Below, one piece after another: positions 3,133 through 57,903 of a stretch of DNA of 64,000 nt (position 1 is its first letter; each line of letters opens with the position of its first letter). The stretch is from Antedon mediterranea (taxonomy: Eukaryota; Animalia; Echinodermata). The stretch lies in NCBI RefSeq assembly GCF_964355755.1, contig NC_092673.1:5890001-5954000 (forward strand), in the 5' to 3' direction. Below the pieces are notes generated by a model. The model made no database searches and had not been told where the DNA came from. It worked only from the letters and a program-made list of their open reading frames with translations. Made by a program: the position numbers and the translations under genes.

Positions 3133-3175
<43 letters not shown>

Positions 3176-18021: not shown

Positions 18022-18024
18022 TTT

Positions 18025-19911: not shown

Positions 19912-22900
19912 AGATAGACAAATTAGTTTGCAGAAAGAACGTATAATCGGTATGGTGTCTTCAGTGAACAGCGAGGAAAGGGTAGATCTAGTGGAAGTAG
20001 CAGATGGACTGCAAGTGCATGTGGGAGAGGTGATGGTGTCTCAAGATCATAGAGTATCGGCTGTACCATCCACTCAAGCTAATATTATGGCGAGTGAGGG
20101 GGTAGCTCCAGGTCTCAATTTGGACCATTTAGAAGAAGAAATCAAAATTAAAGTCACCAATTGCATCAACAAATATCCCACGGTCTTTTCTACAGGAGTC
20201 TATGACGTAGGTAGATGCGATCTAATCCCACACTCTATCAAACTAACTACAGATAAATCGGTACAACAACCTTTCAGACGCATTCATCCGCAGAAAATCC
20301 CAGAGGTCAAAGCGATGTTAAATGAGATGGTTAAACAAGAGATTATTCGTCCATCCAAGAGTTCATATGCTAGCCCGATAGTGCTTGTTGCAAAGAAGGA
20401 TGGGACGCTTCGTCTGTGTATAGATTACAGAAAGATTAATGCAGTTACTGTAAAAGATTCATTTCCGCTTCCAAGAATTGACGAAGTTCTAGATATACTG
20501 GGAGGAGCAAAGTACTTTTCAACGCTTGATCTGGCTCATGGTTATTATCAAGTTACCATGGACGATGTGTCTGTTGATAAGACGACTTTCCGTGTACCTT
20601 GGGGATTATACGAATTTTTGAGAATGCCACAAGGACTAAGTAACTCCGCCAATACGTTTCAGAGACTAATGGTTTTTATATTCGCAGACATGAATCTAAA
20701 TGACCTCGTGTTATATCTTGATGATATATTGATATTTTCTGCTACATTAGAAGAACATATGGCTAGATTAGAGAAGGTGTGTTAACAAGGCTGTCAGAAC
20801 ATGGATTGAAACTTAAGGGAAAAAAATGTGATCTCCTGCGACAAGAGGTAGAGTATTTGGGACATGTGGTAAGCGATAGTGGTGTGAGGGTGTCCGAAGA
20901 TAAAGTCAAGAGGATACGAGAGTGGCCAACACCAACATCTGGTAAAGAGGTTAGTTCATTCCTAGGACTTGCCTCTTACTACAGGCGATTTATTCATGGG
21001 TTCTCCCAGATAGCGGCACCATTGCATGCATTGGTAGGAAAGTCTAGGAGTAAAACAGACATTCAAGCGAGGAACTTCAAATGGTCTGATGTCGAAGAGA
21101 AGGCGTTTCAACAGTTAAAGGATATGGTGAGCTCTACACCCGTCTTGGCTTACCCATATTTTCAACAAGACTTTGTACTCGAGGTGGATGCGTCCTTCCA
21201 GGGTCTTGGAGCGTGCTTGATGCAATCAGACACCCAAGGTAAACTGCAAGCAGAGGACTTAGAGGTGCTGAAAGAAATTACAGTGACCTGTCGAGTTTTA
21301 AAGTCGAATTACTTGCCCTGAAGTGGGCGGTGACAGAAAAGTTTAGCTCGTATTTACTTGGCTGCAAGTGCACTGTATACACCGATCACAATCCACTTGT
21401 CCACCTGGAGACAGCAAGATTGGGAGCGACTGAACATCGCTGGGTTGCACAGCTGGCAACGTTCCACTTGGATATCAAGTATAAACCTGGTAAAGAGAAT
21501 AAGTGTGCCGATGCGTTAAGCAGAACTGTTCCAGTTAGCGAGATGGTCAGCGGAATACTCGGAAGTTTACCCAAACCAGAGTTAGATGCTGTTGTAGTCG
21601 AAAGAGTTAGTGTGAGTCGTCCAGCTGTGTTTCCTTCCTATAGCGATCTACAACTCTACCAATTTCAGTGCGAGTCGCCCGAGCTTAGAGAGGTATTGAA
21701 AATGAAAGTTGAAGGATGGGAACCGGGCTGCGAGTTTGATAAGTCTATCAATGGGCTAGCAAGCTGGTTAAAGCAGTGGAACAACCTAAAGCTAATAGAC
21801 GGAATCTTGTATAGAGTGGGTAGAGACGAGGTACACAGAGATGTCAATCAATATGCCGTTCCAGTTAGTATGAGGAGTACCATATTAGATATGTTACATG
21901 ACCAATGGGGACATCAGGGGGTAACGAGAACACTCAAATTACTCTATGCGAGATGTTACTGGCCAGGCGCAAAGACTGCTGTAAAACAACATATCAAAAA
22001 GTGCTTTCGATGTACGGTAAGCAAGAGTCAAGTACCTGCTGTTTGCCCGCCGCTGCGACATCTGTTAGCCTTTAGACCGCTGGAATTGTTGGCTGTTGAC
22101 TTTCTAAAGCTAGACAAGGGGAGAGGCGGGGTGGAAGATGTATTGGTAATGACAGATGCTTTCACCAAATTTGCCATAGCTGTTCCATGCCGGGATCAGA
22201 CTGCAAGAAGCGTAGCCGTAGCCTTAAGAGATGGGTGGTTCTGCTATTATGGTGTGCCAGATCGCATACACTCTGATCAAGGCAAGAACTTTGAGAGTTC
22301 CTTAATTAAAGAACTATGCCTACTGTATGGAATCAACAAATCGCGTACTTCTGGATATCATCCAGCTGGCAATGGGCAGACCGAACGCTTTAATAAACTT
22401 TATGCGCTCTGATGAGGTCCATAAAACCTGCTGAAAAGAGAAGATGGCCTGACGTGATTTCGTATGTTGTATTCATGTACAATAGTACGCCGCATCGAGT
22501 AACTGGGGTAACACCGTACTTTTTGATGATGGGTCGTCACCCTAAACTTCCTATTGACCAATTTTTAAATTCTACAAATGCAGATTGGAATGAAGATTAT
22601 GTTCGGACACAACAAGAATCTATGGAGCTTGCGCATGAAGTAGTGAAGCGCCGACTCGTTCTTGCAGCAGAGTCAGAAGAACGGAGACATAGAACGAGTA
22701 ACTGTGACCCATTCCCTGTGGGTGCTCGAGTGCTGTTAAGACGAGATCATTTCGAAGGTAGACACAAGCTAGAAGATAAATTTGAGAACATGTCATACAT
22801 AGTGATAAGTGTAAACGATGAAAAAGATGTATACGAAGTGAGACCTTTCTGTGGTGGCCTGAGTAAGAGGGTCAACCGTAGACGATTGATTGCTGATCCA

Positions 22901-23131
22901 AGGGAATGTGAAGAGGCGAAGTTGGTCGAGCCAGAGATCCCTAATGCTGTACCTGAAAATTCTTTAGATACAGTTTCGGAAGATTCATCAGAGGACTCAT
23001 CGGAAGATGAAGATGATGTTTGGGCGCAGTTTGGAAACATCCAGATACCCCAACCTGTTCGTAGGTCGTCTCGACAAAGCAAGGGACAACATAGCAACGT
23101 GAACCATCTTCCGCAACCTGCCAGATCATAA
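19865..23131 (+). pseudogene. pol: Gypsy pol (RT, RNase H, integrase) broken by four frame disruptions
   Basis: RT motifs LRLCIDYRKIN, RMPQGL and YLDDILIF; RNase H motifs VDAS and YTDHNPL; integrase motifs H..GH..C..C, SDQG and GNGQTERFN. The frame changes near 19890, 20780, 21246 and 22393. Confidence 0.9.
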
Positions 23132-23173
23132 CTTTTTTTGTCTTTCGGGTCGAAAGGGAATCAGCGAGGAAGA

Positions 23174-24515
23174 TGTCGGAGACTGGAATTATATAACTAT
23201 TATTTGTTACTTTTATTGAGAATGATTCTATTCAATTTATTCATATTTTACACTTAAATAATTATTTTGATTGGAACTACTTTATTATTATAGAATGTTT
23301 GCCTTGGTGATTTTGTACGTATGCGCATTATTATTTAGATAGCGTCGTTGTTATAAGGTTGTGGGGAGAGCAATTACCTCGTGGGAGTTGAGATAAAGGC
23401 TCGAGGAGGATAAGCCGTGTTTAAGAAGAGTTTAAAGATTGTTAGTTTGTTAATTTTTTGCGAAGAAAACCACTTTAATTGTAAGTCTAGTATGCTATGC
23501 TTCCTCAAGTAGTTTATAGTGATTTTGATTATTAGCTTAAATTAATATTGTTGACGGTAATCGACATTTTAAATGAGAAGTGATGTAACGTAAATTAGGC
23601 CTAGTAGTAGTAGTGATTACCATGTGATGTCTGCATGGTCGTGTGAATTTGATTACCATATGTAACAATCAAAGACTTTGTATTGTATATAAATGAGCTA
23701 GAATAATGACAGTAACGGGTTCTATGGCCTTGTTTGCCATGATGTTATGTACTGTATACAGTACTCTTTTATGAAGTTGAAGTTATATTTCACCTTGTAG
23801 GTTGTTTAATCACTTTGATAAGTTGAGAACTGTCTAGAGTTGATCAGTTACCGATCGTTTACATTGAGTTTTTGGTTTCGTCGAGCGCCCTCTAGCATGT
23901 ATTCTTATAATGTAAACAACAAAGATGGCGGCGCCCATGTACGATATCGGTAGCGTTAAGTTTCTGATTATGTTGTTGCATATAAGTACGGTAGTTATAT
24001 TAGTAGTTGTAATTGATTATTTTAGATGGTTGGTGTTACTGACAATTGCTGACTGCAGTAAATCGAGCTGATTTGAGGGCAACTCGTTTTTAATTGTAAC
24101 TATACTATTACTAAGCTGTGTTAGTGTTACAGGAGGGCATTGCAGGTATTGTGATTGTTTAATAACATTACTATTTTGAGGACTTGCTATGATATAATTT
24201 CCCGAGTTAAAGATGTGTTATTGGCTGAATGCTATAATGATGTAAACTGATGGAGATAGATAACTTTGAGAAGTTATTATTTGAGTTGTATTATTTATGA
24301 TAAATTGAGGTCATGCGTAGGTATAAGTTGAAGAGTTTACCTTATATCATTGTAATGTTATTTTTCTCTGATTGGTATTACAGGGGTTTGTGTTTGTGTG
24401 TTTTAGTCTGTTTAATGATTCGATTTACGGTCCAGTTTTAATAAACGTCTTACAACGTAAATACAGAACAGAGTGCGAGGTTCATTCTTTTGTTCTTTGT
24501 GTGTGGCCCACGACA
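23174..24515 (+). repeat. 3' LTR of the Gypsy element
   Basis: Same length as the 5' LTR, and no mismatch was noticed by eye. Confidence 0.95.
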
Positions 24516-24848: not shown

Positions 24849-27715
24849 ATGCCCAAGATAAAGAAAAAATCAACTACGTTTCACGTCTACTACCGAAGAC
24901 ACCGAAGGACATGCAAAGTACGAAACCGGTTTGATAGCATTCATACAACAACAGTCCCACATAGAATACCCACGTTACCTTATAACTTGCCCTACCACAA
25001 TATACTCTAATTTGCTATACAGTATTACCCTGGAAGCGATATTTTTGGCGTACCTAATTTATGGACCACCATGAAACATCACAAAATAAACATGCATTAC
25101 TCATCAGTCATATGCATAGGTGTCACCCAGGCTTCAATCAGGTACACCCACTAGAGGGTGCGTGAGTGAATTATTTCAGATCACTTGGGTAATGATGACA
25201 ATTCAAAGATAAAATGTAATAAAGACAACGTTTACACAGCAGCTAGTGATGAACCAAAGAGTAATATCAAAGTGTATCAACTAAGATTAGATAGTAGTTG
25301 TGATGTTACAGGTCATGAAGTATTATTAATTGATGAGGAACAGACAAAAACGTCCAATGAAACAATTAAGAAGAATACACGACCTAGAAATGAATTTAAA
25401 CAATATGATATGAATGATGATAACAGTGTCGATATTAAAGATTCAACCAATGCATGCAAAATATCTGATGATGATACTAAAGACGTTGCGTCATTTAGGC
25501 CTAAGGAATACAAAACTACTGTATAGCACAGGGTAATTTTAATCAAGGGCATTCTTGGTTTGGCTATGCACGTGGTAAACAGTGTGTTGTAAATAGTTTG
25601 GTAGCTATTGTTTATTCAACAATGAGGCATGGAAATGAATTTTACAAAAATGATCTTGACACAATATTAACACTTGGAAATTAATTGTATTACTATATTC
25701 AAAAGGATTCGACTATGGATGAGGACCTATTAATGATATCTGAATTGCTGAAAGAATTGGATATTTTGGAACACATTTGTAATATCTCCCAAAGAATCAG
25801 TTTTTGGCATAATAGATGGGAATCTCGAATTAATGGCTGATTATGGAGCCTTGTCATTAAATCAAGCTCTTGAACAAGAATTACACCTGCGTGTTTTATG
25901 AATTTTAACAGAAGTACATTTGCTGTTATCAAACGTATAAATGGTTTCCTTATATTTGAACCACACACGAGAGATCGATTTGGTTGTGTTAGTGAACATG
26001 GAAAGAGTATTTTACTTTACAGTACATCTTGGCAAGGATTATATAGATATTGTACAAGATTAGCCAGATCAATGAACTGTAATTTACATGAAACAGAGTT
26101 TGAAATGACTGGTGTAAATGTTCAAAATAAATCTATGGTTTTATGCTCTGCTTCTGCTGGTATGTTTTGTGATAAATGTGAACATAATAATTCAAGAAAT
26201 GTCGATGTTGATGAACCTAGTACGTCTTATCAGTATAAACAAAAATTATAATGAATAATAATGAATTTGAAGTAAAGGACCAAATCCATTGTAATAAAAA
26301 TGATAATGTTTCAACGAGTAATACGGTAGATGTGAAACTGATGGCGATATTGAAATTGTTAATGTTCAGTATGGAGAAAGACCTGACAAGAATTTTAAAT
26401 ATGTTCCGATCTTAGATGCACAAAAGAAAATAATGTGTAATAAAGTAGACATTAAAAATATGAATGTACCGGTAGGAATTGTGGTATTAACAGAGCTAGT
26501 CATATTGGACATCCTTGTCAAATTAAGAATATTACAGGTGATGGTAATTGTTTTTATCGTGCAATTTCATACATTATTTCTGGGACTGAAGATAATCATT
26601 TAATTTTAAGAAAAGCAATTGGTAATCATTTATTGGAAACAAATGACTTGTTTAGTAATACATTAAGTGATGAATATAGGACAGTTAAGGAATATGTGAT
26701 TAAAAAGAGAGTAATGTATAATGGAACGTGGGCCTCTAATACTGAAATAAGTGCAATGGCAAACTTGCTTAACACAGATATTTATTCTTTCAATGATCAA
26801 CTTTTGATGTGGCAATTGTTTTCTGCAAAAAAGCCCGGAATAATAAATGATGTTACAACTGATAACGGTATATATACTGTATACTAGAAATGTACATTTC
26901 AATGTGGTGAAATCTGTCGATGTCAATTTAAATTATGTTCAGGAAACTATAAGAATTGAGGATAGTGATGATGTGGACATGTCAATAGAAACAAATTTAG
27001 ATCCCAGTGTTATAAAAACTAGTATTTCAATAACTGAAAATACACAAAAAAGAAAATAACTTGATGTACTTGGAGATGCTATAGGACCGAAACATAAACG
27101 TACTGAAAATAGTGGACGACTTCATTCCAATGAGAAAGTAAAGGTTTTAAGAAAGACTAAAAAAAGATCTGAAAAAAATTAAAGACAAAATAACAAAATA
27201 CGAATGAGGATGAAACGTTCAAATAAAAGTACACAGAATGTAGAAAACAAACAGAAAGTAAAGAAACATAATAAAGTGGATGCACTACGAAATAAATATC
27301 AAAATGATTCTGTATATAAAGAGAATAAGAAACGTAAAAGTTAAGGCACACAAAATAAGATATGTTAATGACGATTATAAATGTTATAAAAGAAAGGAAA
27401 ACAGAGAAAGACAAGAGAAAGCGTACAGATGTAAACCCAATTATAATCTCAAAATACGAAGTAACGCGAGACAAAATTACAAAATGAATTTGAATTACCG
27501 AACAACCAAGAAATCCAAAAGTGTTGAAAACTATAAAAAAAATGAAAAATTTAGCCAAGAATTAAGAAAAAAGGAAAAACAGATATCACAATGATTTAAT
27601 ATTTAGAGAAAACTTTAAACAAAAGAATCAACAAAACATGGCACAAAAGTATCGGAATAATTTACAATTCCGACAAAGACTAGCAGCAAAGTATCGAAAT
27701 AGTATTGGGAAAATT
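24849..27715 (+). mobile_element. Degraded Helitron/Helentron-like coding remnant: herpes-tegument (peptidase C76)-like domain, OTU domain and K/R-rich region; Rep/helicase missing
   Basis: QGNFNQGHSWFGYARGKQCVVNSLVAI at about 25529 followed by FLIFEPHTRDRFG; IKNITGDGNCFYRAIS at 26522, GTWASNTEISAMANLL and VHFNVV. There are several frameshifts. This domain pair is known from the N-terminal part of animal Helitron-class proteins. Confidence 0.65.
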
Positions 27716-27766
27716 CATAAGAATACATTTTTTTTTACTTCATTAGCTAGTACTTTGTTTTTGCAG

Positions 27767-28318
27767 ATAGTAGAATAATTGGGGAAATGGCAGAAAGTTA
27801 TATTGAAGAAAACATGTTCTTGGATCTGAAACAAAATCTCAGTAAACTCTATGACGGTGATAGATACTTATGGTTAAGGTTCTGTCTTTATGATCATCTG
27901 GATCTAGGAGACATCACCCAACCAGACAACAATGCACAGGACCTATTTAATGCACTAGAAATCAAAGGTTTCATCACTTCTACTAACGTGAAACTTCTCC
28001 TGGAGGTGACTAAATTAACAGAATATAAGAGTGCTGTAGATCTTGTGATTCAGTATATGAAAGACATTCAGCAAAATACGGATACGGTACAATTGTCACC
28101 ATTCCGTACAAAACTATTTAAGTCATTGAAACAAATTGACCCAAATGCATTCAATAATGTCATTTCTTGCTATGATCTAAAAAAGTTTGATTTAAAAAAA
28201 ATCTGGAACATAGTACTTCATCTGGAAATGAATGGACAGTTAGCAGATGAACCAGGTTTAATAAACAGGTTCGCTAGTTACCTTGGACAACGGTCACAGA
28301 ACATATTGCTAAATAGAG
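27767..28318 (+). CDS. Gene 2 exon: divergent tandem DED pair (type A)
   Basis: FLDLKQNLSKLY..LWLRFCLYDHL..AQDLFNALEIKGFIT..NVKLLLEV resembles FADD and caspase-8 DED1. QLSPFRTKLF..IWNIVLHLEMNG resembles the start of caspase-8 DED2 (QISAYRVML). Confidence 0.7.
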
Positions 28319-31300
28319 GTACGTATAAATAGCTATCTATGTATAGTGTATTTCTAATTAAAATGAATGAAGTAATATTTTCATAACCAGACAATTGGGG
28401 CATCTAGTCAAAATTTGAACAGGGGAAGCATAACTATGCTTCTATATCAGTCCCCTGTTTTTGTAATTCCTGGATTTTCCCCTGAAAAGCTCTAGAATAA
28501 TTGGCATTTATGTGAATCAATTTCAAATGATTTTTAGGCTATTAAACAGTATATTATAACACTAACCCAAAATTATAGTATGCTCTATCAAAATCGTATG
28601 AAAGACTTGTGCTTGTGCACAATTCTCTTTTAGCCATTTTGATGTTGTTCTGTTTCTTTGCGACAGCATGATGGTCAGCCATTTAAAAAATATCTGTCTG
28701 CTATTTTTAATGAAAAACTGTCATTAAATTATATTCCACATGAATTGATTTTTGTATTATTTAAAAAAAATGTATTATATTATATATTTATTTTGAAAGG
28801 TGTAGCACTTCCTGTCACTATCAATTCAAACTGTAAACTGGACAGGCTTACTGATTGTCTGAAATCTCTCGAACAACAGAACAAGTTGAACCAAAGTTTA
28901 CCACCATCCATCAAAGTCAACGGATTAGGAATCAACGATTCAAAAGCATCAATATTTTTTCGTATGTGCACAAAAAATCGAAAAGCTGTAAAGGACTTAA
29001 TGGACATGCATGTGGAGGGCGTGCTCATCCAGGGTTTAGCAGATATTTTAGAACCAGAAAATCGACAGAAGTTTTTTGAAGACTGGACGACTGACATTGT
29101 GCTAAATGAATTCATAGCTGCTTTAAGAAAACTAGGTAAAGGTACAATAAAATAAATTGCTTGATTACTTGCTTGATAATGTTGGGCCGTTGAAAAGCTT
29201 TCAGCTTATGTGACCCATCGCATGTCATATATATAAGTTGTGTCAGTTGACTGTGTATGTAAATGTATTGGAAGGAATGCTGGTCCAATAATCATTAAGA
29301 AGAGTTTTTAAAATATTCAACGTTGAAGCATTGACCACCTCAAATTGGAGGCTATTCCAAGAGTCTATGACCCTACCTGCAAAATAATATTTCTTAACAT
29401 CCAGCCAAGATTTAATTTTATGCAGTTTGTAGTTTTTTGCTCTGGTTGGTGATGGGTTAAACTGAAAAAAAGAAGAAAACTATAACAATTATACAATATA
29501 TTTATGTTTTGTTTAATCTGAAGTTTTTAAAAAGCTTTAACTTTAAATGACATATAATTGTTGTCCCATTCTCCTGAAAATAAAAAAGGTTTCATGAAAT
29601 GGAGAAAATTTATCTTACAGATGCCCTTTCTTCAAGCACTGAAAAGGAAAGCTGTGATGGTAATATGTATTTTCATGTTTATTTAAATTAGAAGCAGTAA
29701 AAATGATATTACTTTTACTTTTTTTGGTACAAAAGTGAGCATTTTGATGCAGTTAAAAAAAGTTTTATATTTGTTAAACAAAGACCAAGTGCTACAAAAC
29801 TAAATCTGACCATGCTTGGGGACATCTGAATATACATTTTTCTAAACTGAGATACTGTACCTTACAATTCTCTGACATATTCCTTGAGAATGGTTTGCAA
29901 GATGTTGCTGTGAAGTTAGGATATCTTTGAAGTTTGGACTTATGAAAGATCCCGAAAAATAAATTGCACTCCTGCATTAACACTACTTCACTTTCTATGC
30001 TTTTTCGGCATAGATATAGGATGTGGGAACACCCTTCATTACCTCTTAAATTGTTCTAGATCCAACTGCATCTCATTTTGAACATTTAGCCTTTGCAATT
30101 AACTTGATTTGATCAAGGAATTGTCTATCCAATTAATTTATATTCATGAACTACTGTTCAAACATTTTAAACCTATATATGTAACTATTATTAGGCCCCT
30201 AACCGTAAAATATCAAATTAAACTTGTTTCTGCATTTTCATTTTCTAGTGTTTCGTTCAATTCAACTTGAACCTTTATTCTTTCAATTGAACAAGAAAAT
30301 GAAGATAAACAATGAATAATGAAAAAATTGAAAATACAAATACTAAAAAAGTAAACAACAGTTAGAACAGGAAAATTCTATTATTCTAACTGAAACTTTT
30401 AGTAGGCTACTTGCCTAAATATTAGATTTTGATATATGGAAGAAACTTAAAATATAGTTCATTACATAATTTGGGACCATTTAAGGTGAGTTTGGGTTTT
30501 ATAGGATGTAAATAATCATATGCAGTGGATATCAGACGAGGGTGAAACAAGAAGGATGACTTCATAACAACATAATTTATAGAAATAAAAAATTACATAA
30601 ATTGTACTTCATTTTTAAATTTAAGGTGTGCAGTTAGTAGTAACTCTTGTTAAGGATGAAAAGTCTTCTTCAGTCACTGACAGTGAGCAACCATATGCAT
30701 TGGAACTTCTTTTCAAACTAATGGAAAAACAGAAAGAGTGGAGTACAACAGCTGTGGCTGAAGTTCATAAAACAATAGAATGTCTAACTGATTATTTTAA
30801 AAGAAAAAATCTACAATTCCAGAAAGTTGAAACAGGAAGTATAGTGTTTCATTTTGTGTCACATGATTCTGAAGCACTGGCAGAGCTATGGAAAATGTAT
30901 TGCAATGAAAGTCTTCACATGAAGTTAGCATCAATATTAGGAACAGATGACCACCAAAAACAGCAGTTGCTTGATATTACAATTCATGAAGAAGACTACA
31001 AAAATGCAATGATAAAACTTGGAGAATTTAGTAAGGAATTATTATTCTAACTTGATACTGATAGGAATAATGTACAGTACTGTATAAAAACATGTATAAA
31101 ATCTGTACCTATCAATAATCACCTATTCGTTTATTATTAATATAAAATTTATTGACAAGAAGAGAGATCGACGTTTCGGTACCATCATAGAACCATTTTC
31201 AAGATCAAGTGAATACAAAACAATAATAATTATGTGCACTAAGCACCAAAGTTGGTGACAGGAAATGCTACTGAGAGCTAATTAAGCAATTAGCTCCTCC

Positions 31301-34300
31301 TACTGAGTTTGTTAGATAAACAATTTAGCTTTGATGGAATCTGTTTATTGAGTGTAGGTTTTAACACAAGTATGGATTGCTTGAAAACTTTAACAATATA
31401 ACTAATAAGATCTAAAGGATAATTCAACTTTTGAAAAACCTTTGTTACATTATCAACCTCTGATAGGAAAATGTCATATGTAGATAACAATTTGTAGGCC
31501 ATATTAAGCATTGTGTGAATTAGATTCAATAAACAAGCTAAATTGTTTATCTAACAAACTCAGTAGGAGGAGCTAATTACTTAATTAGCTCTCAGTAGCA
31601 TTTCCTGTCACCAAATTTGGTGCTTAGTGCACATAATTATTATTGTTTTGTATTCACTTGATCTTGAAAATGGTTCTATGATGGTACCAAAACGTTGATC
31701 TCTCTTTTTGTCAATAAATTTTATATTGAAATTATATAGTAAACGTCTTTTAATTCGTTTATTATCCTTTCTTTAAAATCTTGTGTGGGTTCACTATATG
31801 TATATAATATCCCACTAAGCTTTTCAAAGCAACCAGATATGAAACAGATAATGAAACTACCTTTTTCACATCTGGAAAATGTAACAACTTGTTTGCTTAG
31901 TGTGAATACAATGTTACAATTTACAACTTGTTACAACTTGTAACAATTTATGCAGATGTGAAAAGGGTATAAGATAAGTTTTGTTTTCTTTGACTGGCTA
32001 AATTTGTTTATCTTAACATCCTAGACAAATTCTAACCGCAATTTTGAATAAACTCACTGAAAGTTATAAAAAGTGACGCTTCTGATACAGGCACACTAAA
32101 AAAATGTGTACTGTATTCCACCCAATACTCTTAGAAAACACTATTCAACAAATATGATGGGTATAGTATTAGAGTTTATCAGGGAGAGTAACAATATTTA
32201 GTATATGATCCTTTATTTCTAATACAGTAGATAAACCTTTAGATTTTTTATTTTTATCTTTTTAGATCAAGCTGATCAAACAAGAACTACTAATCCGTCA
32301 ATAGTGCCACTTGATCCCGACACAAAGGTAAATATCAAAGATTGTCAGACTGACAGACAAGCTACAACTAGTAGGCCTACTATTGTATCAACAGTACCAC
32401 CGAACCTGGACACAAAGGTAAATATCAAAGATTGTCAGACTGACAGACAAGCTACAACAAGTACTACTGCATCAACAGTACCACCGAACCTGGACACAAA
32501 GGTAAATATTAAAGAGGGACAAACAATAATCTATGTATAAATTATGCATATTTTGAAGGCTGGCCGGCACAATGCAAATCCTATTCCAAACCAAATAAAA
32601 CATAAATGATCACAAACTGAAACAACTAACTATTATTTTATTGATGTCACAATAATTGTGGAAAAACAGGTTGTTCTGATCAAAGTTTTACCACTTTGAT
32701 ATTTGTAAAAAATAATGAGAATACCTAATAGAACATAGGACTACACAAAAAACAATTCAAGGAATGCTAAAAAATACTTAAAAAACCAAAATATCCAATT
32801 TATTAGTAATACAATGGGTAAAAAATTCCATTAATATAACCAAGCAAATTAAATGAACTTTATCAACAATCTAGACAAAATTATCTTCCACACAAAATAG
32901 AGCATTCAGAATTTAATTATGATTGACACAAAGTATATTTTCAATCTCTCTAGAACTTCATTGTTTAAAGTAGACCATTACTATCAAAACTTACCAGCAT
33001 ACAACATTTAATGGTATAGGTAGAATTGGTCAAGGATCATTTAAACATACAAAATATCTGTTATAAATACATTATCTATGTAAATGTATTACTTTTTTAT
33101 TGGTTGTCTTTAAATCCTATAATGCATCATTCATTGATAGGCCTACTAACATTAAAAATAAATTGTAGAAAAATAATAACATATTGTTTATGATTTTCTA
33201 GAAAATAACCCCGAAAGAGGAATTTGTAGAGTGCCTTGAATGTTTAAGTGATCGATATAAAGGTGACAAACATTTGTGGTTAAGACTTCTGTTACATAAC
33301 CACTGTTCTGGACAGGCATTAAGTAAAGAAGATGTCCCAGCACTTGAATGGTTTAATGAACTTGAAAGGACAGGTTGTATTAATTACAACCCTACTGATG
33401 TAGAAATTCTGTTAGACATTGCTAAAGTAACTGAAGAGAAGAAAGCGATAGATTTAATAGAACAGTTTAAAGTGAAGCATCCTAACAACAATGAAGAGTA
33501 CAACTTTACCGAGGGAAAACCAATCACAGAATATCGCAAACGACTGTTTGCAGCTTTAAGAGAAAATACAACAAGTGTATCAACCATGCTTGCACACTAT
33601 AGCCTAGGTCATCTCAAGGTTAACAACATTTGGGATTTTGTATTCATCCTGGAGAGGGATACACTTCTGGTGGATGAAAGGAGTTCAATGGAACACTTTG
33701 CAAAGCTTCTCGATAAAAAAGCTAGTGACATTTTTTTGGAGAAAGAAAGTAAGAAATTGAAAATGAGACTTGGCCCACTTAGTAATAAATCTGGAAACGA
33801 GGAAGAGAACAAGATTATGAGAGAGGGCAGGGAACAACTCTCTGGAGAGGGTAAGTAAAATATTTTAGAAACAAACTTATAAATAACATAGCTCCATTGT
33901 TTGTAGAGTATGATTCAGGTAAATTTGACTATTTAAAAAATATTCCCATACATATGATTTGCTTTGAATATTTGCATTGGACTTCTTTGAGTAAATTTTA
34001 CTTGGTAAAATTAACTGTATAGTTTGGGTATTGTCGACTGAAAAATTCCAGTGGGTATTGGGAGCCGAGTATCTACTTTGAAAATTCAAATCCACATTAC
34101 AAAACAAAATATCTGATTAATTATATCTTGTAAAGTTGTATAGTTTTATTTGTATTTAGAGCAAACTGACAGACGAGCTACAAGTGCTACTGCATCATTA
34201 GAACCACTTTACTCTAAAACAAAGGTATATAGTAATTAGTTTACAAACTTAAAGGTTTCTATTGTATTACCATACCAAACAAAAATTGTAATTAATGTAA

Positions 34301-36269
34301 TTATGTTTTGTAGGTGTCTGCTAAAACAATGTTGCAGTTCATAGATGAAAATGGTCTTGAGTGCTCAATCTGTCAACAAAGATTCACAAATCCAAAAACA
34401 CTCAGGTGTCTTCATACTTACTGTCTTAACTGCCTGCAATATTTGATCAGACAACATGGTAAGATACGATGTAGAAAATGCCCTCAGATGTATCGACTAA
34501 AAGATGATGACTTGAAACATCTGAAGTGCAATGAAAAGATAAGTTATCTAGTTGAATATGTTGAGAAGATTGAATCTAAAAAAACAGAAATCTGTTCAAG
34601 TTGTACTAATCAACCGAAATACTATTGTTTTAAGTATGAAAAGTATTTGTGTGGGCAATGTATCCAACAGTATAAGAATATGCCTGCACTGAATTCACTG
34701 TACAAACTAGATACAAATGTAGAACATGTGGTAATCCCAATGCAGACACCTAATCAAACTAAGAGAGCTAAAAGCATTAAAAACAAACTAAAGGAAAAGT
34801 TAGATGTTATCACTAAAGACAGATCAGAGCTTGAATCTAATTTCAAGTTAAGCAGAACAGAGATTGAAATCCATGAGAGTACAATTATCAGAAAAGTGAA
34901 GGAGGAGTCTAAGGTAATGATGGCAAATCTTACACAGATTTATGAAGAACAAAGTAAATTTATTGATAATCAAATTGAACATTTGGAATCAAAGCTGACA
35001 CAAGTGAACACACTGACAGACAATAAAATGATGAGTAAACTACCATTATACCAGACAGCAGATGAAATGGAAAAATCACTTAAAACAAAAATTACACCAA
35101 AGTTCATTCCATCTCAAAAGCTGGTTGAGTTAATAACTCATGAAGGTGTTGGTAAACTTATCACTGTTGGTGATGTGCACAAGGTTAATGAAGAAGATGA
35201 GAACATTTCAGTCATAAAAGAGCAGCCATTTAGTGTGAGAGTATCAAGTCTAGCAGAGAGTGATGTTGGTCAACTAACAGCCACACTAAGCAACTCATCA
35301 GGTGATAAATCAATCACTGAAGTAACACACAGAAAAGGAGAGTACACAATAACAGGTAGATGTAATTTGGAAGGAGATTGGCAAATGGATATCATTTATG
35401 GAGATATGTCACATGTCATAGGTTCACCAGTGAGTATCAAGGTGGAACCCTTTGGACTTGTTCACACTATAGATAATTTTACAAAGAATAAATATACAAA
35501 ATTAGGTATTGTGACAGATGTAGCAGTAGATTCCGATGGGTTTATGTTAGTGTCAGACACATATGTTAACAAATTTGATCCATCAGGTAATTTTGATTCT
35601 AGGATACAAATACCACAAAATGTAAAAGTCAATCAGATGCCTAAAAAAGTCAATCGCATGCATCAAATAGGCAATGGTCACATGGTTTATAGTTGTAATT
35701 CAGACAAATGTGTTGTGATGTGTGATAATCAATATCATGAAATCCGAACTTTTGGTAAAGGAGTATTAAAATATCCAAATGGCTTAACAGTAAACCAAAA
35801 GACAAGGATTCTTTATGTAGCAGATTGTGAATGTCACTGTGTGTTTAAATTCAATATTGATGACGGTAGTCTACTGGGTAAGATAGGTTCTGAAGGTCGA
35901 GTAGGTCCATCAGATGTTACTTTAACAAAAGAAGGTCATGTAATTGTTGCTGATTGTAACAATCACAGAATACAAATATTAGATAGTAATGATAATCTGA
36001 TAAAAAATCTTGTAGGCTATGGTAAAAAAAAAAAAATACAAAACTTCCATGCTCCTCAAGGTATAACCACAGATAAGGATGGGAATATAATAGTATCCAG
36101 TATAAATAAACTACAACTATTTGATAAAAATGGTAAATTCATTAAACGAATAGATAAGGAAGATGATGGTTTGGCTATTCCATTAGGGATTGCTGTAATC
36201 TCAAAAAGACCACGAAGAGTAGCAGTGGCAAACCATTCAGCAAATAATTTCAAAATATTTAATTATTAA
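27787..36269 (+). CDS. Gene 2: DED-DED / TRADD-N-like x2 / linker / DED-DED / linker / RING-type TRIM-NHL protein, about 1334 aa, 7 coding exons
   Basis: Exons are 27767-28318 (ATG at 27787), 28800-29135, 30626-31030, 32266-32327, 33202-33850, 34160-34224 and 34314-36269. All are bounded by AG/GT with compatible phases 1,1,1,0,1,0, and the total from the ATG is 4005 nt in frame. The C3HC4 RING is intact (CSIC..CLHTYCLNC..CRKC). Confidence 0.7.
28800..29135 (+). CDS. Gene 2 exon: putative TRADD-N-like domain 1 (phase 1-1)
   Basis: Bounded by aag|GT and G|gtaaag. The sequence ASIFFRMCTKNRKAVKDLMDMHVEGVLIQGLADIL parallels the next exon. Confidence 0.5.
30626..31030 (+). CDS. Gene 2 exon: putative TRADD-N-like domain 2 (phase 1-1)
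   Basis: Bounded by ttaag|GT and A|gtaagg. VETGSIVFHFVSHDSEALAELWKMYCNESLHMKLASIL..LDITIHEEDY fits the recalled GS-strand-ALxxLW pattern of TRADD-N-like domains. Confidence 0.6.
31139..31727. mobile_element. Penelope-like fragment flanked by 193-bp inverted repeats, in intron 3 of gene 2
   Basis: The arms 31139-31331 and 31535-31727 are near-perfect reverse complements. The spacer on the minus strand encodes NLIHTMLNMAYKLLST..EV..VFQKLNYP, typical of the Penelope RT C-terminus. Confidence 0.7.
31858..31969. mobile_element. Small MITE-like element
   Basis: The ends tacctttttcacatctg and cagatgtgaaaagggta are inverted, with TA at both boundaries. Confidence 0.5.
32266..32510 (+). repeat. Tandemly triplicated linker exon with three in-frame splice donors
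   Basis: GACACAAAG|gtaaatat occurs three times, with exon ends at 32327, 32417 and 32501 (spacings of 90 and 84 nt) and no stop codon between them. Confidence 0.85.
33202..33850 (+). CDS. Gene 2 exon: tandem DED pair (type B, paralogous to the first exon of genes 1, 4 and 5)
   Basis: Starts ttctag|AAA ATA ACC (phase 0, with ATA where the paralogues have ATG) and ends G|gtaagt. Confidence 0.75.
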
Positions 36270-36532
36270 GTTAATTATTAAATAATTGAAAAAATGTAAA
36301 GAATTAAATCTTCCTTTAATATATGCCATCAAATAAATGTTAGTGAAAATGATCAACAAAGCAAAAATCATCTAACCTGCAGTGTACATTGAATATCAAT
36401 TGTATTTTTTTAAGTCTTCTAAATAGTATAGAACATTTTTATAACACTGAATTGTATTCTTGCCATTTCCGATTACTGATGCCATGCATTATTTTCTTTT
36501 GTATGATATTTTTAGTGTAGGTAAATAATTAA

Positions 36533-37158
36533 AGCCCCATTCCCTACGTTTTTTAGATTTAATTTAAGATCACAAACTATATTTAATGTAAAAATAATAC
36601 TATATGGTCCTATTGCGATAACTTTTTTCGTCTTTAAACGGTTAAAAATGTGAAAAATAAATCGATTCTAATAATTATAGCGGCCCGCTATAAATCCCAA
36701 AATGCATTGCGCGCGGATTGATATTTTTGTTTTTCACCTGTAATTCGCCCACTTTTCGATCGATCGTGAAGCCAAAACAAATGGAAGACTCCTAACTTTT
36801 CAGCGAAAATACTGGGTTTTCCCCAATTTGTATCAACGGAGTCTGGCAAAAATAGAAAGACAATTAATGCAGCAACTATACAACGTCAGGCTAGGTATAT
36901 AGCTAGCGTACGATGTTCGTACGTTATCGATGTTTACCAGCTAGGCCTACAAAACTAAGCCTAGCTAGGCTAGGCCTAAGACCGTCCACGAGAAGTCGAT
37001 CACCGCGAGCTACTTAGGTAGTGCATTGTTTCTCACTTTTTATCATAATTTACCATAAAACGTACATTTAAGACAAGGAATGACATGGTTTAATGTTTTT
37101 AAAGTGATATATATGTATTATTTTCCAAAAAACGTCCAAAATTGCAGGGAAGGGGTCT
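36533..37158. mobile_element. Non-autonomous Kolobok-like DNA transposon
   Basis: TTAA flanks both sides (36529-32 and 37159-62). The imperfect TIRs are agccccattccctac and gcagggaaggggtct. Confidence 0.6.
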
Positions 37159-37690
37159 TTAATTGTTTACGGATGTTTTACATATTAGACTACCCCTTTT
37201 ACACCGCCAGCAAAAATGCGGAATTGTGTAACCTGGGTCAGACTTGGGACATGTAGGCCGGTGTAAACTACGTAAAAAGTTACCTGGGTCACTGAACTAA
37301 AGAAGTGATGCCATTGACTATGGTGATGCAGAATGTATTCAGCGCAGAGAGATGTTAATAAGTTGAAGGCTAGAGGGCGTACTCCTGACTGGAAATAGAT
37401 TCCAACAGGCGCTAATGCAGTTTCGTACCCACCCCTTAAAATTACTCAAAATTGTTTCAATACTTCATCCCACGAGTTGTCTACAACATTCTGCAAACAT
37501 AATATTGTAAAAAATTGATAATTTTAAACTATTTTTAATCAATTCATAATTGAATACCCTTCAAAAATCCATCGCCAGCTTAGCTTCGTAAAAATCATCG
37601 CTAGGCCTGCCATTAAAAGTATGGAGGCCTCAAAGGACAACAGAATGTTCTCTATATGATCTATAGAGGACGCTGTTATGGTCATGTTAT

Positions 37691-39823
37691 ATGGCTATAA
37701 CAAATACAATAATAAACAATAAAACCCGTAATATCTTTATTGGAGCCGTATATTACCCTCCTTCATCCCCAGGTGCTGATGACACATTGAACATATACTC
37801 AACAGTTGACGAGATTCGTCTAACTAACGCAGATTCACTGATGATTATCCTAGGCGACTTTAATGATTTGAACATCTAACAGAACAACTTGGGATGGTAC
37901 AAGTCATTGATTTTCCAACTGGTTACGTTTTGCTGCTTCAAGGTTTTTATGACCCGTCCAGAACTATATACAAAGCCTAAAAAATGTGCACCCCTTGGGC
38001 GTAGCGACCATAGTAGTATTACCATTCATCCTTGCCATGAGTTGCCACCATCCAAAATATGCGTATGCAAATTAGACCATACAGAGAGTCGTCAGTAAGA
38101 TCGTTTGGACAATGGATAACCAACTATGACTGGAACTGGATGTTCGATCGTAACTTATGCATGAATGAGAAAGTAAATGGCTTAATATCAATGTCTTAAA
38201 AGGTGCATATAATCAAAATTTCCCTGTCAAGCAAATAAGAAAAAGAATAGCTGATCGTCCTTGGATGACTCAAAACGTTCGTCAACTACTTGATGCAAGA
38301 CAGCGAATGTATAACAACTGTACTAAGGCTGAATGGAGACAAACACGCAACGCTATTCAGAAAAGCATTCATTCAGCAAGGAAAAAATTTTATGATAAAT
38401 CAATGCGAGGCCTTAAAAATAATGATCCGGCAACATGGCATCACAATGTACGTAAACTGTGCAATCTAAAAAATCGAAAAATGCTAAAAATCCCTGGCCA
38501 CTCAAATCAAATCAAGACCTTGCAAATAACCACTTTGCATCTGTGTGCCGACAGCTTCCCTTAGTTGATGTAAATGCTCTTCCTGCATATTTGCCTTCAC
38601 CTGAACCCCCACCACAAATTTTTCCTGGACAAATCAAACGATTGATGAACAAACTGAAATCAAAGAAGTCTAGTCACCCTGATGACTTACCAATTAAACT
38701 TATAAAATAGTTTGCCTTTGAAATTGCTGCTCCACTAATGATAATTTGTAAAATAATAAGATCGTAAAATAAATACTAAACTTAGTTCATCCTTTTTTCC
38801 CCTTTGCCAACATCACCTGTGGGATTGCACAGGGTACAATTAAGCTTGGGCCAATTTTGCTTCTCATAAAAGTCAATGATATTTCTATGGAAGGCTGCAG
38901 ATGGTGGAAGTACGTGGATGATCTCACTCTTGGTGACACTGTTAAACATGGTAAAGCCCCTAAACTTCAATCTTGCCTTGATGACCTTACTGAGTGGTGT
39001 GATACAAATCACATGGTCTCTAAACCCTCTAAGTGTCATATCATGAGAGTTAATTTCTTGAAAAGAAATATTTCCCCTCCCAATTATTACCTAGCAATAC
39101 AACAAAATGTTGTTTGTGTATGTGCTCCTTGGATGACTTATCCAGGATGACTTGAAATGGGATAATAATGTCAGTGACATGGTCAAGAGAGGGTTATATA
39201 CGTTATATATTCTTAGAAGGGCCAATGAACCAGTTCATGATATGATATCAGTTTATGTTTGTTATATTCGCCCAATCTTAGAATACATCTGCCTTGTAAG
39301 GCATGGAAGCATCAATACCATTGAAAGAGTGCAAAAGAGAGTTTTACGTGTTATTCTGGGTCCCGCTTTCCACACATATGAGTCAGCTCTTGAGATTACA
39401 AATCTGACCACTGTCGCATCCAGACGAGAGATGTTAATTCTAAAATTTGGAGAAAAGCTCTTGAACTATTTTACCGCATTATTACTAGAGAGCTAATTAA
39501 TATAACTGTTAGTAGAACTAACCATCTTAAAACCTCGCCTGCCCTTACTATAAGTAGAATCCTTAATTTATACAGTACTTAAAATGATCACACACTGGCT
39601 ATGTTATAAATATATACATATATTTGCATTTGTATATAAATGTTGGAGTTTTTAACACAATTTTATTTGTTAACTGACTTTTTCAAATGTTTTAATGTTT
39701 TGTATAAATTTTGTATTTTTTTAATATTTGTGTTTCCATATACTGTATATATTTTTGTAAGTCAACATTATCAGCCTTCTGGCTGAATGTTTTTGACTAT
39801 ATAAACCTGAATAAATAAATAAT
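37691..39823 (+). mobile_element. Degraded CR1/L2-group LINE (APE and RT fragments with an internal deletion)
   Basis: Motifs GAVYYPP, LGDFN, PLGRSDH, KYVDDLT, YIRPILEY and IERVQKR, with many stops. An (AATA)n tail is at about 39810-39823. Confidence 0.75.
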
Positions 39824-40286
39824 AGTTTTTACATGTTCCTTGTGAAATGATGGCTTGGCTTATTACCATGTTTTCTTTTTAAAAATGTACACACCTATAT
39901 ATTATTCTGTTAAAAAATATACCATTATTGAACAAATAAATGTTTTTTGAACTTGAACCTGAACTTGAATTTATAAAAAGATTTTTGTGTTTAATTATGT
40001 TATGTATTCTATTTAATTTAATTTTGTATTGTTGTATGTTATTGTCTTGTCAAATTGTATTTTTGTGAAGGTCCCTAATGATCAGTTTCGGCTTGATGGA
40101 CCACCCTTGTAAAATATTGTTTTACAAGTGAATAGTTGCATCATTATTTAATGCTATATTTTTATTTGTTTTTATGTTATAAATAGTAGATTTACACAAC
40201 AGGAAAGAAGATAAAAAGAAATGAAAAACAGGAAATGGTGTATTTAGTACGAAAGCCCATTAATGCCATTTTAAGTATATGTTTTT

Positions 40287-41370
40287 CGAACGTAATCCGT
40301 TCTAACGAATTAGTAATTCGTTTGAACGGATTAATAATCTGTTCAAACGATTAGTAATCCGTTTGAACAAATTATTAATTTGTTTAAACAAATTATTAAT
40401 TTGTTCAAACAGATTACTAATTTGTTAGAACGAATTAGTAATTCGTTTGAACAAATTAGTAATCCGTTTAAACAAATTACTAATCCGTTTGAACGGATTC
40501 CTAATTTGTTTTAACAAATTATTAATCTGTTTAAACAAATTAGTGATTCGTTTGAACGGATTAGTAATCCGTTCAAACGAATTACAACATGGCACTTGTT
40601 GTATATGTTGCAATTGGTTTGAACGGATTACTAATTCGTTTGAACAGATTACTAATCCATTCAAACGAATTACTAATTTGTTTAAACAGATTAATAATCT
40701 GTTCAAACGAATTAGGAATCCGTCCAAACGGATTAGTAATTTGTTCAAACGAATTAGTAATTTGTTTAAACGAATTAATAATTCGTTCAAACGAATCAAT
40801 TCGTTTAAACAAATTATTAATTTGTTTAAACAAATTACTAATTTGTTTAAACGGATTACTAATTCGTTCAAACGAATACTAATTCGTTCAAACAGATTAG
40901 TAATCCAAACGGATTACTAATTCGTTTGAACAGATTACTAATCCATTCAAACGAATTACTAATTTGTTTAAACAGATTAATAATCTGTTCAAACGAATTA
41001 GGAATCCGTCCAAACGGATTAGTAATTTGTTCAAACGAATTAGTAATTTGTTTAAACGAATTAATAATTCGTTCAAACGAATCAATTCGTTTAAACAAAT
41101 TATTAATTTGTTTAAACAAATTACTAATTTGTTTAAACGGATTACTAATTCGTTCAAACGAATACTAATTCGTTCAAACAGATTAGTAATCCAAACGGAT
41201 TACTAATTCGTTTGAACGAATTAGTAATCCGTTTAAACAAATTATTAATTTGTTTAAACAATTTAGTAATCCGTTTGAACGAATTAGTAATTCATTTGAA
41301 CAAATTAGTAATCCGTTTAAACAAATTAGTAATTCGTTTTAACGGATTAGTAATCCGTTTAAACGAATTA
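40287..41370. repeat. 21-bp quasi-palindromic minisatellite array
   Basis: The unit is approximately gtttaaac(a/g)(a/g)att(a/t)(g/c/t)taat(c/t)(c/t), present in both orientations. There is a higher-order duplication with an offset of about 286 bp (40623 vs 40909) and a short unique spacer at about 40585-40615. Confidence 0.9.
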
Positions 41371-42702
41371 CAACCACAATTCTCGAATACATAGTAATTT
41401 CAGCGTTAAAAAAACTGGCGACTTCCAATGTACATGCAGGACAATAATACATGTCGTTTACAGGAACGAATAAATAAACACGGTGATTTATGTACTCAAC
41501 TAAAATTAGCACCCCGGGAATTACTTCCGAAAAAGAAACTTGTCACAAAATAAGAAACAAACTGAATTTGTGTTTTGTATGTAACATTAGGGTTGAGGGA
41601 TGGGGAAGAGGATGGGTGCAAAGACGAACAATTTTTAAATATATTCTTTATCGATTTAGTAACGAAATATGAATTGGTTTCATGTTTACCACTAACCACA
41701 GTAAAACATTGCGATGTAATACTTTGTTGAAACTATCACCGTCCTAGTCGATTGAAATAGTACAGTACATGTAACGATACATCACTAATACGATGTTTAT
41801 ATTTTTTTGTAGTTACATTATTAATTAATACAAACGTTCAGAAGGAACTGTCAGTAATAAAGTAAACACCTCTATTCGGGGCAAATCGTAAATTCGCTTT
41901 AATCGTCAATAAATAATTATCTAACTCAACTTAATTAGTAGGCCTAATGGTCAATTGTTTCATAGAGCCAATTCATACTTAAGTTGTTTCCTAACCACCA
42001 AAGTTGTTCTGCGTTTAGGGCATGTACTGATCCTTCGTACTGTAGGTCTGTCCTCTACTGGCTTTACAACGCTACTCATGCCAGTGAGGGGAGGGTGGTG
42101 GTGGTTTAGCTGAAATAATAAAGTTGATTGTACATAATAGACGGCGACTGGAAAGGCTAGCTGATTATGCGTTAAAAAAAAAGATTCCACAGATTGGAAA
42201 AAAATGTATCGAATTTCTGTTATGACTGTACTTGTCTTTACGATGCCTGAGGGAATAGACACTTGTGGAACAGAGATTGGAATGTTCCATTTATCGCAGA
42301 TCAAAACATTTGTATAAACGTATATTAAATCTATCAAAATAGTATTTTTTAAAGAAAATTGGCCTGTCTTCAACATTATGATGCTGTACTCAAGCTGTTC
42401 AACCGGTTTTCAGCTATTAAAAACAATTATCGTAGGAGGAGATAGGAAAATGCGAAGCATCCTCGCATTATTGTCTGCGGGTATTTTTCAAGTTGGACAT
42501 CCATTAGACAGTGCATACCACGACCACGAAACACCCCTATTTGGGGCAAATCGTTGAACCTAAATTCGTTTTAATCGTCAATAACTAATTATCTAACTCA
42601 ATTTAATTAGTAAACATGGTTACATCAGATGGTTAAAATCAGTACCGAAAGTACGAACCAACTTTATATACCATCGAGTAAAAATTCCAGAAATAAACCG
42701 CG

Positions 42703-57872: not shown

Positions 57873-57903
<31 letters not shown>

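What the first reader, a model, noticed from the sequence alone, without database searches (positions are those of the whole stretch)
27767..36269. Seven-exon signalling platform: 4 DEDs + 2 TRADD-N-like domains + intact RING TRIM-NHL
Seen in sequence: six scattered ORFs plus a micro-exon chain into one 4005-nt frame with matching intron phases. The type-B DED exon has ATA where its paralogues have the start ATG, which is consistent with it being internal here. This is the only intact copy with a complete C3HC4 RING. Established: TRADD-N binds TRAF2 in TNF signalling, and DEDs recruit caspase-8/FADD. Inference: one polypeptide may combine sensing (NHL), ubiquitin ligation (RING), TRAF/NF-kB recruitment and caspase recruitment, acting as the master or helper for the RING-less paralogues.
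Basis: partly seen in the sequence, partly recalled or inferred. Interest (0 to 1): 0.8.

Follow-up and report, generated by a model that had tools for sequence, protein, structure and literature searches.

The report
Feather-star death-domain TRIM fusion gene
This feather-star gene joins two pairs of death effector domains and two likely TRADD-N switch domains to a TRIM-NHL protein whose RING has lost key enzyme-contact residues, so it likely works as an immune scaffold rather than a master ubiquitin ligase, a new arrangement within a family already described in marine invertebrates.

Summary
The frame is real: seven GT-AG exons, 4005 nt, no stops. It matches RefSeq XP_071947518.1 of Antedon mediterranea. 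Spliced contigs from one RNA-like run join TRADD-like exon 2 to the repeat exon, and the second DED exon to the RING exon. A weaker joint (23 letters) links the two halves. The first two junctions were not seen. Corrections: exon 4 reads past 32327 (152 or 236 nt), and a 39-nt micro-exon probably lies at 29621-29659. The second DED exon folds like caspase-8 tandem DEDs (Z 14.6). TRADD-N identity is likely, but below Pfam's cutoff, and the fold test was inconclusive. 'Intact TRIM' is wrong. B-box 2 is deleted, B-box 1 keeps 5 of 8 ligands, and the RING ends CRKCP where TRIM2 has CPVCR, losing the linchpin arginine. The gene looks like an exon-shuffled chimera of a DED-TRADD-N-ubiquitin paralogue and the local DED-TRIM-NHL unit. 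Kaur et al. 2021 already describe DED+TRADD-N expansions with TRIM fusions and say TRAF is not a universal partner. Verdict: new variant of a known kind; the 'master E3/TRAF platform' reading is not supported.

The parts
27767..28318 (+). Exon 1, tandem DED pair type A (ATG at 27787; an in-frame phase-1 splice acceptor lies at 27767, so the true 5' end may lie upstream)
   Evidence: 30% identical to DED-B, E 2.6e-26; family HMMs iE 4e-13 and 6.8e-7; Pfam DED 18.5 bits, below the cutoff of 35.9; not folded on its own
28800..29135 (+). Exon 2, TRADD-N-like domain T1 (phase 1-1), 'AS' at the beta2-beta3 turn
   Evidence: leave-out HMM 42.1 bits, iE 8.8e-14; hhalign 95.6% to the T2 family; Atlas 0.93; no Pfam hit; no spliced contig seen
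29621..29659 (+).
   Evidence: AG/GT, keeps the frame; best score (tied with a shorter form from the same acceptor) among 28 candidate exons against the T1-T2 linker of paralogue P0002; no RNA cover
30626..31030 (+). Exon 3, TRADD-N-like domain T2 (phase 1-1), canonical 'GS' motif
   Evidence: Pfam TRADD-like_N 18.1 bits, E 0.0025, cutoff 23.7; Atlas 0.92; spliced to 32266 in run X1
32266..32501 (+). Exon 4, Ser/Thr-rich linker of three tandem copies of the local phase 1-0 micro-exon; donors at 32327, 32417 and 32501, all in frame; RNA supports 32417 or 32501
33202..33850 (+). Exon 5, tandem DED pair type B; ATA in place of the paralogues' ATG
   Evidence: AF2 pLDDT 86.6; caspase-8 tDED Z 14.6, rmsd 3.1, 157 aligned
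34160..34224 (+). Exon 6, 65-nt phase 1-0 micro-exon
   Evidence: the length of the gap in spliced X1 contig 4 fits it exactly (its letters were not shown)
34314..36269 (+). Exon 7: RING (34362-34481; Pro codon at the linchpin position 34482-34484), degenerate B-box 1, no B-box 2, coiled coil, filamin-like region (by position, no Pfam hit), NHL propeller
   Evidence: X1 contig identical over 34312-34938

Best explanation
It is a spliced feather-star gene, likely born by exon shuffling, whose protein likely acts as an immune or cell-death scaffold: the NHL end is predicted to sense a ligand, and the four death effector domains would then seed DED assemblies, while the RING is likely a weak or inactive ligase. 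Shown: the open frame, the 3' splice joints, the tandem-DED fold of exon 5, the loss of both B-boxes and of the RING linchpin, and a paralogue (P0002) carrying the same DED-A/T1/T2 block in front of ubiquitin. Inferred from TRIM family knowledge: the coiled coil dimerises the protein, so eight DEDs are presented together. Inferred from Kaur et al. 2021: the TRADD-N-like pair is a conformational switch between constant and variable parts, not necessarily a TRAF dock. Inferred from the fold: the DED partners are a caspase-8-, FADD- or cFLIP-like protein, or the DED-B pairs of the neighbouring paralogues.
For: Frame and phases. RefSeq model identical in all aligned blocks. Joints 31030>32266 (GT-AG, 151 letters on the short side), repeat end>33202 (23 letters) and 33850>micro-exon>34314; DNA-like runs give intron-containing contigs there. 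DED-B model: the top 12 of the VIA rows are DED proteins, best Z 14.6. T1 and T2 are homologous and carry the tiny+Ser motif, as do 20 of 20 family rows under a permissive pattern. Relatives combine DED pairs and/or the T domain with ubiquitin, LRR, TIR, Roc, B-box or propeller tails, the pattern of PMC8195603 section 11. RING CRKCP against TRIM2 CPVCR; the R64 mutation ablates TRIM2; RNF38 R454P binds E2~Ub 32.8-fold weaker (PMC12326332 Table 1). Selection holds the frame: DED-B dN/dS 0.32-0.41, and 14 of 20 indels against the broken neighbour are multiples of three.
Against: Exon 1-2 and 2-3 joints were not seen; the only contig over the exon-2 acceptor is unspliced. The middle joint has 23 letters on one side, under the tool's 31-letter rule. 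All RNA support is one sample whose RNA status is a guess and which also holds intronic contigs. No single contig spans the gene. T1 and T2 stay below Pfam's cutoff, and the T1+T2 model is poor (pLDDT 60.6). RING dN/dS against the neighbour is 0.19 over 48 codons, and TRIM32 is active with a non-basic linchpin (PMC11992055), so the RING may still work. No partner or ligand was tested.
Confidence: 0.58

Rival explanations
1. Active master E3 platform: the RING ubiquitinates, TRADD-N recruits TRAFs, DEDs recruit caspase-8, and the RING-less paralogues borrow its activity through coiled-coil heterodimers.
For: All 8 zinc ligands are kept; RING dN/dS 0.19; only open-frame RING copy among 5 in the window; TRIM2 can rescue TRIM3 by heterodimerising (PMC9732051 abstract); the TRADD-N serine is kept.
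Against: Loop-2 Pro, the next residue and the linchpin Arg are all replaced, while the broken neighbour keeps CPKCR. Both B-boxes are lost. MATH is not a universal TRADD-N partner. The rest of the genome could not be searched, so other RING copies may exist.
Confidence: 0.12
2. DED decoy or brake: with tandem DEDs and no caspase it caps caspase-8-type filaments, like cFLIP-S or the viral FLIP MC159, and dampens cell death.
For: FLIP and MC159 structures are among the top fold matches (Z 12.9, 12.7, 11.4); there is no protease domain; DEDD2, the vertebrate DED+TRADD-N protein, is described as a negative regulator.
Against: Caspase-8 tDED scores at least as high (Z 14.6), and the fold cannot tell activator from inhibitor. 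The variable tails of the relatives fit effector deployment better.
Confidence: 0.17
3. A decaying read-through chimera: a truncated DED-TRADD-N gene, cut off upstream by transposon insertion, splices into a degenerating DED-TRIM-NHL copy and has little function.
For: Orphan in-frame acceptor at 27767 directly below OTU-bearing transposon-like debris; loss of B-boxes and linchpin; NHL indels and a 13-A run; a singleton protein cluster; pseudogenised neighbour.
Against: The 1956-nt exon stays open despite many indels. Pairwise dN/dS is no higher than between the other open copies (0.69-0.78 against 0.68-0.74). The ATG-to-ATA change makes exon 5 depend on upstream exons. The sequence is identical in a second sample over 33444-33849 and 34312-34938.
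Confidence: 0.13

Closest known systems
Invertebrate DED+TRADD-N lineage-specific expansions (DEDD2 and NCOA6 clades; Kaur et al. 2021, PMC8195603; read sections 8, 11, 12, 13, search passages and part 64 of 93 of supplement file 4)
   Same: DED plus TRADD-N constant part with a variable tail; TRIM E3 and polyubiquitin fusions named; tandem TRADD-N known; echinoderm expansions known; transposons nearby.
   Different: A DED pair on both sides of a TRADD-N pair followed by RING-TRIM-NHL was not in the rows seen (none of the 6 'RING' rows has a DED; 30 of 30 BBOX places seen; 9 of 43 DED+DED places seen; file cut when stored). A search of 12 of the 13 supplement files found the crinoid Anneissia only in alignment rows of file 2. 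Here the gene keeps introns, which points to exon shuffling rather than retrocopy insertion.
Acropora XP_015777040.1 (TRADD-N+RRM+RRM+RING+B-box+coiled coil+filamin+propeller), Crassostrea XP_011421835.1 (Ig+DED+TRADD-N+B-box+propeller), Branchiostoma XP_002605833.1 (DED+DED+TRADD-N+...+propeller)
   Same: TRADD-N fused to a TRIM-NHL-type tail, with or without DEDs.
   Different: None has four DEDs with two TRADD-N domains and a RING; the sequences were not compared here.
Class VII TRIM-NHL ligases (TRIM2, TRIM3, TRIM71; TRIM56 for the RING)
   Same: RING best matches TRIM2 (E 3e-12) and TRIM56; propeller best matches TRIM71 (E 6e-29).
   Different: No intact B-box; linchpin Arg and loop-2 Pro replaced; about 740 extra N-terminal residues.
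Caspase-8 / cFLIP / MC159 tandem DEDs
   Same: Tandem DED fold, Z 14.6, rmsd 3.1, 157 aligned; Foldseek TM 0.67, E 4.7e-3.
   Different: About 14% identity, no caspase domain, two such pairs in one chain.
TRADD (TRADD-N binding the TRAF2 MATH domain)
   Same: Likely the same small alpha/beta domain with the conserved serine.
   Different: No death domain; the classic TRADD clade is confined to vertebrates; TRAF binding is untested.

Membership tests
DED+TRADD-N invertebrate expansions (Kaur 2021) | Death-like domain, usually DED, next to TRADD-N | tested here: met
   DED-B folds as a tandem DED; DED-A is homologous to it and 46% identical to P0007, whose DEDs pass Pfam's cutoff
DED+TRADD-N invertebrate expansions (Kaur 2021) | TRADD-N profile match | tested here: inconclusive
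   T2 18.1 bits against a cutoff of 23.7; T1 no Pfam hit; Atlas 0.93 and 0.92 to clusters with PF20694 on 18-54% of members
DED+TRADD-N invertebrate expansions (Kaur 2021) | tiny+Ser/Cys motif at the beta2-beta3 turn | tested here: met
   T1 'AS', T2 'GS'; 20 of 20 rows with a pattern that allowed G/A/T/N/S first (motif)
DED+TRADD-N invertebrate expansions (Kaur 2021) | RRM/ferredoxin-like alpha-beta plait fold | tested here: inconclusive
   Model pLDDT 60.6; it builds one sheet from strands of both domains; best Z 6.5-6.6 to ferredoxin/ACT-like folds
DED+TRADD-N invertebrate expansions (Kaur 2021) | Paralogues with variable effector tails | tested here: met
   P0002 with ubiquitin in the same species and contig; unnamed relatives with LRR, TIR, Roc, B-box
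TRIM (RBCC) / class VII TRIM-NHL | C3HC4 RING | tested here: met
   8 of 8 ligands; Pfam above cutoff
TRIM (RBCC) / class VII TRIM-NHL | At least one intact B-box | tested here: not met
   No Pfam hit; B-box 1 has 5 of 8 ligands, B-box 2 is deleted. It derives from a TRIM-NHL but is not a complete one.
TRIM (RBCC) / class VII TRIM-NHL | Coiled coil and NHL propeller | tested here: met
   NHL 66.6 bits; TRIM71 E 6e-29; the coiled-coil region aligns with the paralogues but was not modelled
Active RING E3 ligase | Basic linchpin after the last Cys and E2-contacting loop-2 Pro | tested here: not met
   CRKCP against TRIM2 CPVCR; exceptions such as TRIM32 exist
Active RING E3 ligase | E2~Ub discharge activity | not testable with these tools
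   needs a bench assay
TRADD-type TRAF adaptor | Binding to a TRAF MATH domain | not tested
   No host TRAF sequence was fetched

The most novel reading that the evidence does not exclude
Crinoids have evolved a family of DED-TRIM-NHL receptors in which an NHL propeller senses RNA or protein and directly nucleates caspase-8-type DED filaments. This locus would record the conversion of a TRIM ligase into a ligase-dead filament scaffold: RINGs deleted in three copies, linchpin lost in this one, DED and TRADD-N exons plugged in by phase-compatible shuffling.
Probability: 0.2. Interest if true: 0.7.

Novelty: new variant of a known kind. Interest (0 to 1): 0.38.

Why it matters
It extends the marine-invertebrate DED+TRADD-N expansions to crinoids and shows their building mechanism at exon level: single-exon phase 1-1 modules (DED pair, T1, T2) and a phase 1-0 adaptor micro-exon that can plug them onto different tails (ubiquitin in P0002, TRIM-NHL here). 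If the scaffold reading holds, it is a compact test case for how TRADD-N domains act outside TNF signalling, and for a TRIM turning into a pseudoligase. The class itself, including TRIM fusions, was predicted in 2021, so the surprise is moderate.

Tried and rejected
No whole genome is held, so copy number outside the window is unknown. Parts without cover in X1 (exon 1-2 and 2-3 junctions, micro-exon 29621-29659) are not taken as evidence of absence. The joint table was cut (139 rows not shown), so absence of the spliced joints in the DNA-like runs is not shown. The third homologue search looked only at proteins of 1919-5000 residues and found none; it says nothing. TRADD was not among the listed rows in three fold searches of the poor T1+T2 model; this does not exclude it. 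A profile of A1 against PDB sequences found nothing significant. Complex prediction of DED-A with T1+T2 gave no answer (score 0.00, alignments not used). P0017 (DUF5018 repeats) was dropped as a chance hit among the 16; P0010 was left out of alignment A1 but used in scripts. The 8 listed X1 variants in exons 1-4 (5 replacement, 3 silent) are too few to read. The two-gene reading at 31030/32266 is rejected by the spliced contig. Paper searches with no hit: crinoid+TRIM+death effector domain, TRIM+NHL+death effector domain+echinoderm, DED-TRIM phrases, TRIM+NHL+expansion+invertebrate+death domain. Passages of PMC2575513 had no whole-word TRIM, RING, B-box or NHL mention. Earlier findings of this scan: none.
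Full report
Observation. A search with exon 3 returned one protein, P0001. It is RefSeq XP_071947518.1 of Antedon mediterranea, a crinoid. P0001 is identical to the window's chain in all aligned blocks but has 58 more residues, because exon 4 runs to 32501. The gene model therefore already exists in a public annotation, as an uncharacterized protein.

Splicing. Five runs hold the stretch, none on record as RNA; four were laid. Runs X2, X3 and X5 (one sample) give intron-containing contigs such as 27586-31189, 33650-34216 and 34203-34938. X1 (another sample; RNA is a guess) gives spliced ones. One 1097-nt contig covers 33444-33849 and 34312-34938 with no other letter, and its 64-letter gap is exactly what exon 6 needs. 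A third joins a repeat end to 33202 with 23 letters on the short side, below the tool's 31-letter rule. Those letters fit the ends of repeats 2 and 3 (32417, 32501), which are identical to each other and differ from the end at 32327. So T2, linker, DED-B and RING are most likely one transcript, and exon 4 is 152 or 236 nt, both in frame. The exon 1-2 and 2-3 joints were not seen. X1 also holds intronic contigs, one of them across the exon-2 acceptor. A 39-nt phase 1-1 segment at 29621-29659 keeps the frame and scores best (tied with a shorter form of itself) among 28 candidates against the T1-T2 linker of paralogue P0002; it has no RNA cover.

The DEDs. Pfam gives only a sub-threshold DED hit for exon 1 and none for exon 5. 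The exon 5 model is confident (pLDDT 86.6). Its best Foldseek matches are caspase-8/cFLIP tandem DEDs (TM 0.67, E 4.7e-3; none under 0.001). A search of 48,161 chains puts DED proteins in the top 12 rows, best Z 14.6, rmsd 3.1, 157 aligned. Exon 1 was not folded. It is 30% identical to exon 5 (E 2.6e-26), both halves match HMMs built from relatives, and it is 46% identical to P0007, whose DED passes Pfam's cutoff. Four DEDs is well supported.

The TRADD-N-like pair. T2 hits TRADD-like_N at 18.1 bits (cutoff 23.7); T1 hits nothing in Pfam. An HMM built from 13 relatives without P0001 or P0002 finds T2 at 103 bits and T1 at 42 bits, and hhalign gives 95.6%, so they are homologous. The Atlas returns clusters with PF20694 on 18-54% of members at 0.92-0.93 for both. 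The tiny+Ser/Cys motif that Kaur et al. give as the family hallmark (PMC8195603 section 8) is present in both and in 20 of 20 family rows under a permissive pattern. The fold test was inconclusive. The T1+T2 model is weak (pLDDT 60.6, pTM 0.50), builds one sheet from strands of both domains, and matches ferredoxin/ACT-like folds at Z 6.6 or less. I rate TRADD-N identity as likely, not proven.

The TRIM part is not intact. The RING has all eight ligands and is closest to TRIM2 and TRIM56. It ends CRKCP where TRIM2 has CPVCR and the broken neighbour has CPKCR. In TRIM2, P61 and V62 contact the E2 and mutation of linchpin R64 ablates activity (PMC9732051 section 8; mapping these numbers onto CPVCR is my inference). 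In RNF38, Pro at the linchpin weakens E2~Ub binding 32.8-fold (PMC12326332 sections 6, 7 and passages; its activity was not in the passages seen). Against this, TRIM32 is active with Ser there (PMC11992055 passages), and the RING shows dN/dS 0.19 against the neighbour over 48 codons. B-box 1 keeps 5 of 8 ligands and B-box 2 is deleted. Pfam finds B-boxes above the cutoff in two paralogues but not here. These changes are present in the spliced X1 contig, so they are not assembly errors.

Origin. The window holds four DED-B/micro-exon/TRIM-NHL units (1562-5471, 33202-36269, 50201-52989, 56326-60202) and a broken RING-bearing copy with a LINE between its micro-exon and TRIM exon (43356-46871). 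DED-A, T1 and T2 occur once in the window. On trees, window T1 pairs with P0002 T1 (98/97) and the five DED-B sequences form one group (96/96); DED-A pairs with P0002's second pair at 85/95, not starred. Exon 4 is a triplicated relative of the local phase 1-0 micro-exon. Exon 1 has an in-frame phase-1 acceptor at 27767, and exon 5 has ATA where its three paralogues have ATG. The simplest reading (inference) is that a DED-A/T1/T2 block of 1-1 exons was joined to a DED-B/TRIM-NHL unit through a copy of the adaptor micro-exon. The frame has since been kept: 14 of 20 indels against the broken copy are multiples of three, and five of the other six sit where that copy also differs from a third paralogue. 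DED-B dN/dS is 0.32-0.41; TRIM dN/dS is 0.69-0.78, like that between the other copies.

Mechanism. Most likely (0.58) it is a sensor-scaffold. The NHL end binds a ligand (inferred from TRIM-NHL and from PMC8195603 section 13). The coiled coil dimerises (established for TRIMs, recalled). The TRADD-N-like pair switches conformation (the Kaur model, section 12). The DED pairs then seed or join DED assemblies (inferred from the fold). The RING is probably weak or dead.

Comparison and novelty. Kaur et al. describe invertebrate expansions with a constant DED+TRADD-N part and variable tails, including TRIM E3 and polyubiquitin, note nearby retrotransposons, and state that MATH is not a universal partner. 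Their supplement lists TRADD-N with RING-B-box-coiled coil-filamin-propeller in Acropora, DED+TRADD-N+B-box+propeller in Crassostrea, DED+DED+TRADD-N+propeller in amphioxus, and tandem TRADD-N with propellers in Stylophora. The exact arrangement here was not in the rows I saw, but the file was cut and only 9 of 43 DED+DED places were read. Four paper searches found no DED-TRIM-NHL report; the library lacks most subscription papers. Relatives P0006-P0019 come from a library without names, so their species are unknown. Verdict: a real, probably expressed chimeric gene, a new variant of a known kind; interest 0.38.

Noticed in passing
window 16679-24515: Gypsy-type LTR retrotransposon with two 1343-nt LTRs that are 100% identical (recent insertion); gag-pol is split over several frames.
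   Followed up: partly
window 25874-26887: OTU protease fragment (Pfam 41.6 bits) and a neighbouring fragment in repeated DNA just upstream of exon 1; likely Helitron/Helentron debris, since such elements carry OTU domains (PMC9741609 passages). It may have cut off earlier exons of the gene.
   Followed up: partly
window 43356-46871: Broken paralogue with a canonical CPKCR RING and an intact B-box 1, several frameshifts, a LINE ORF (43366-44562) between its micro-exon and TRIM exon, and no DED exon found upstream in the window.
   Followed up: partly
window 63-5472 and 54788-60203: About 5.4-kb duplication at 90% identity carrying two DED-B/TRIM-NHL units; their DED exons are 97% identical in protein while the TRIM parts are 84%. 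P0003 (XP_071947250.1) is the first of them.
   Followed up: partly
P0002 (XP_071948568.1, outside the window): Paralogue with DED-B, DED-A, T1, T2 and a C-terminal ubiquitin domain ending in Gly-Gly plus a short tail; three isoform records.
   Followed up: partly
P0006-P0019 (unnamed library): Relatives join the T domain to LRRs, TIR, Roc, B-box/coiled coil, a propeller-like tail or further DED pairs, suggesting a larger shuffled family.
   Followed up: partly
window 40280-41479: 21-nt minisatellite array with blocks in both orientations.
   Followed up: no
window 31132-31734: 200-nt inverted repeat, 96% complementary, in intron 3; MITE-like.
   Followed up: no
window 36024-36036: Run of 13 A inside the NHL coding region, in frame here but prone to slippage.
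   Followed up: no
window 36409-37500; 49383-49993; 13015-14575; 38169-39496: Very high-copy repeat just downstream of the gene, a ~147-nt tandem repeat and two sets of LINE-like fragments.
   Followed up: no
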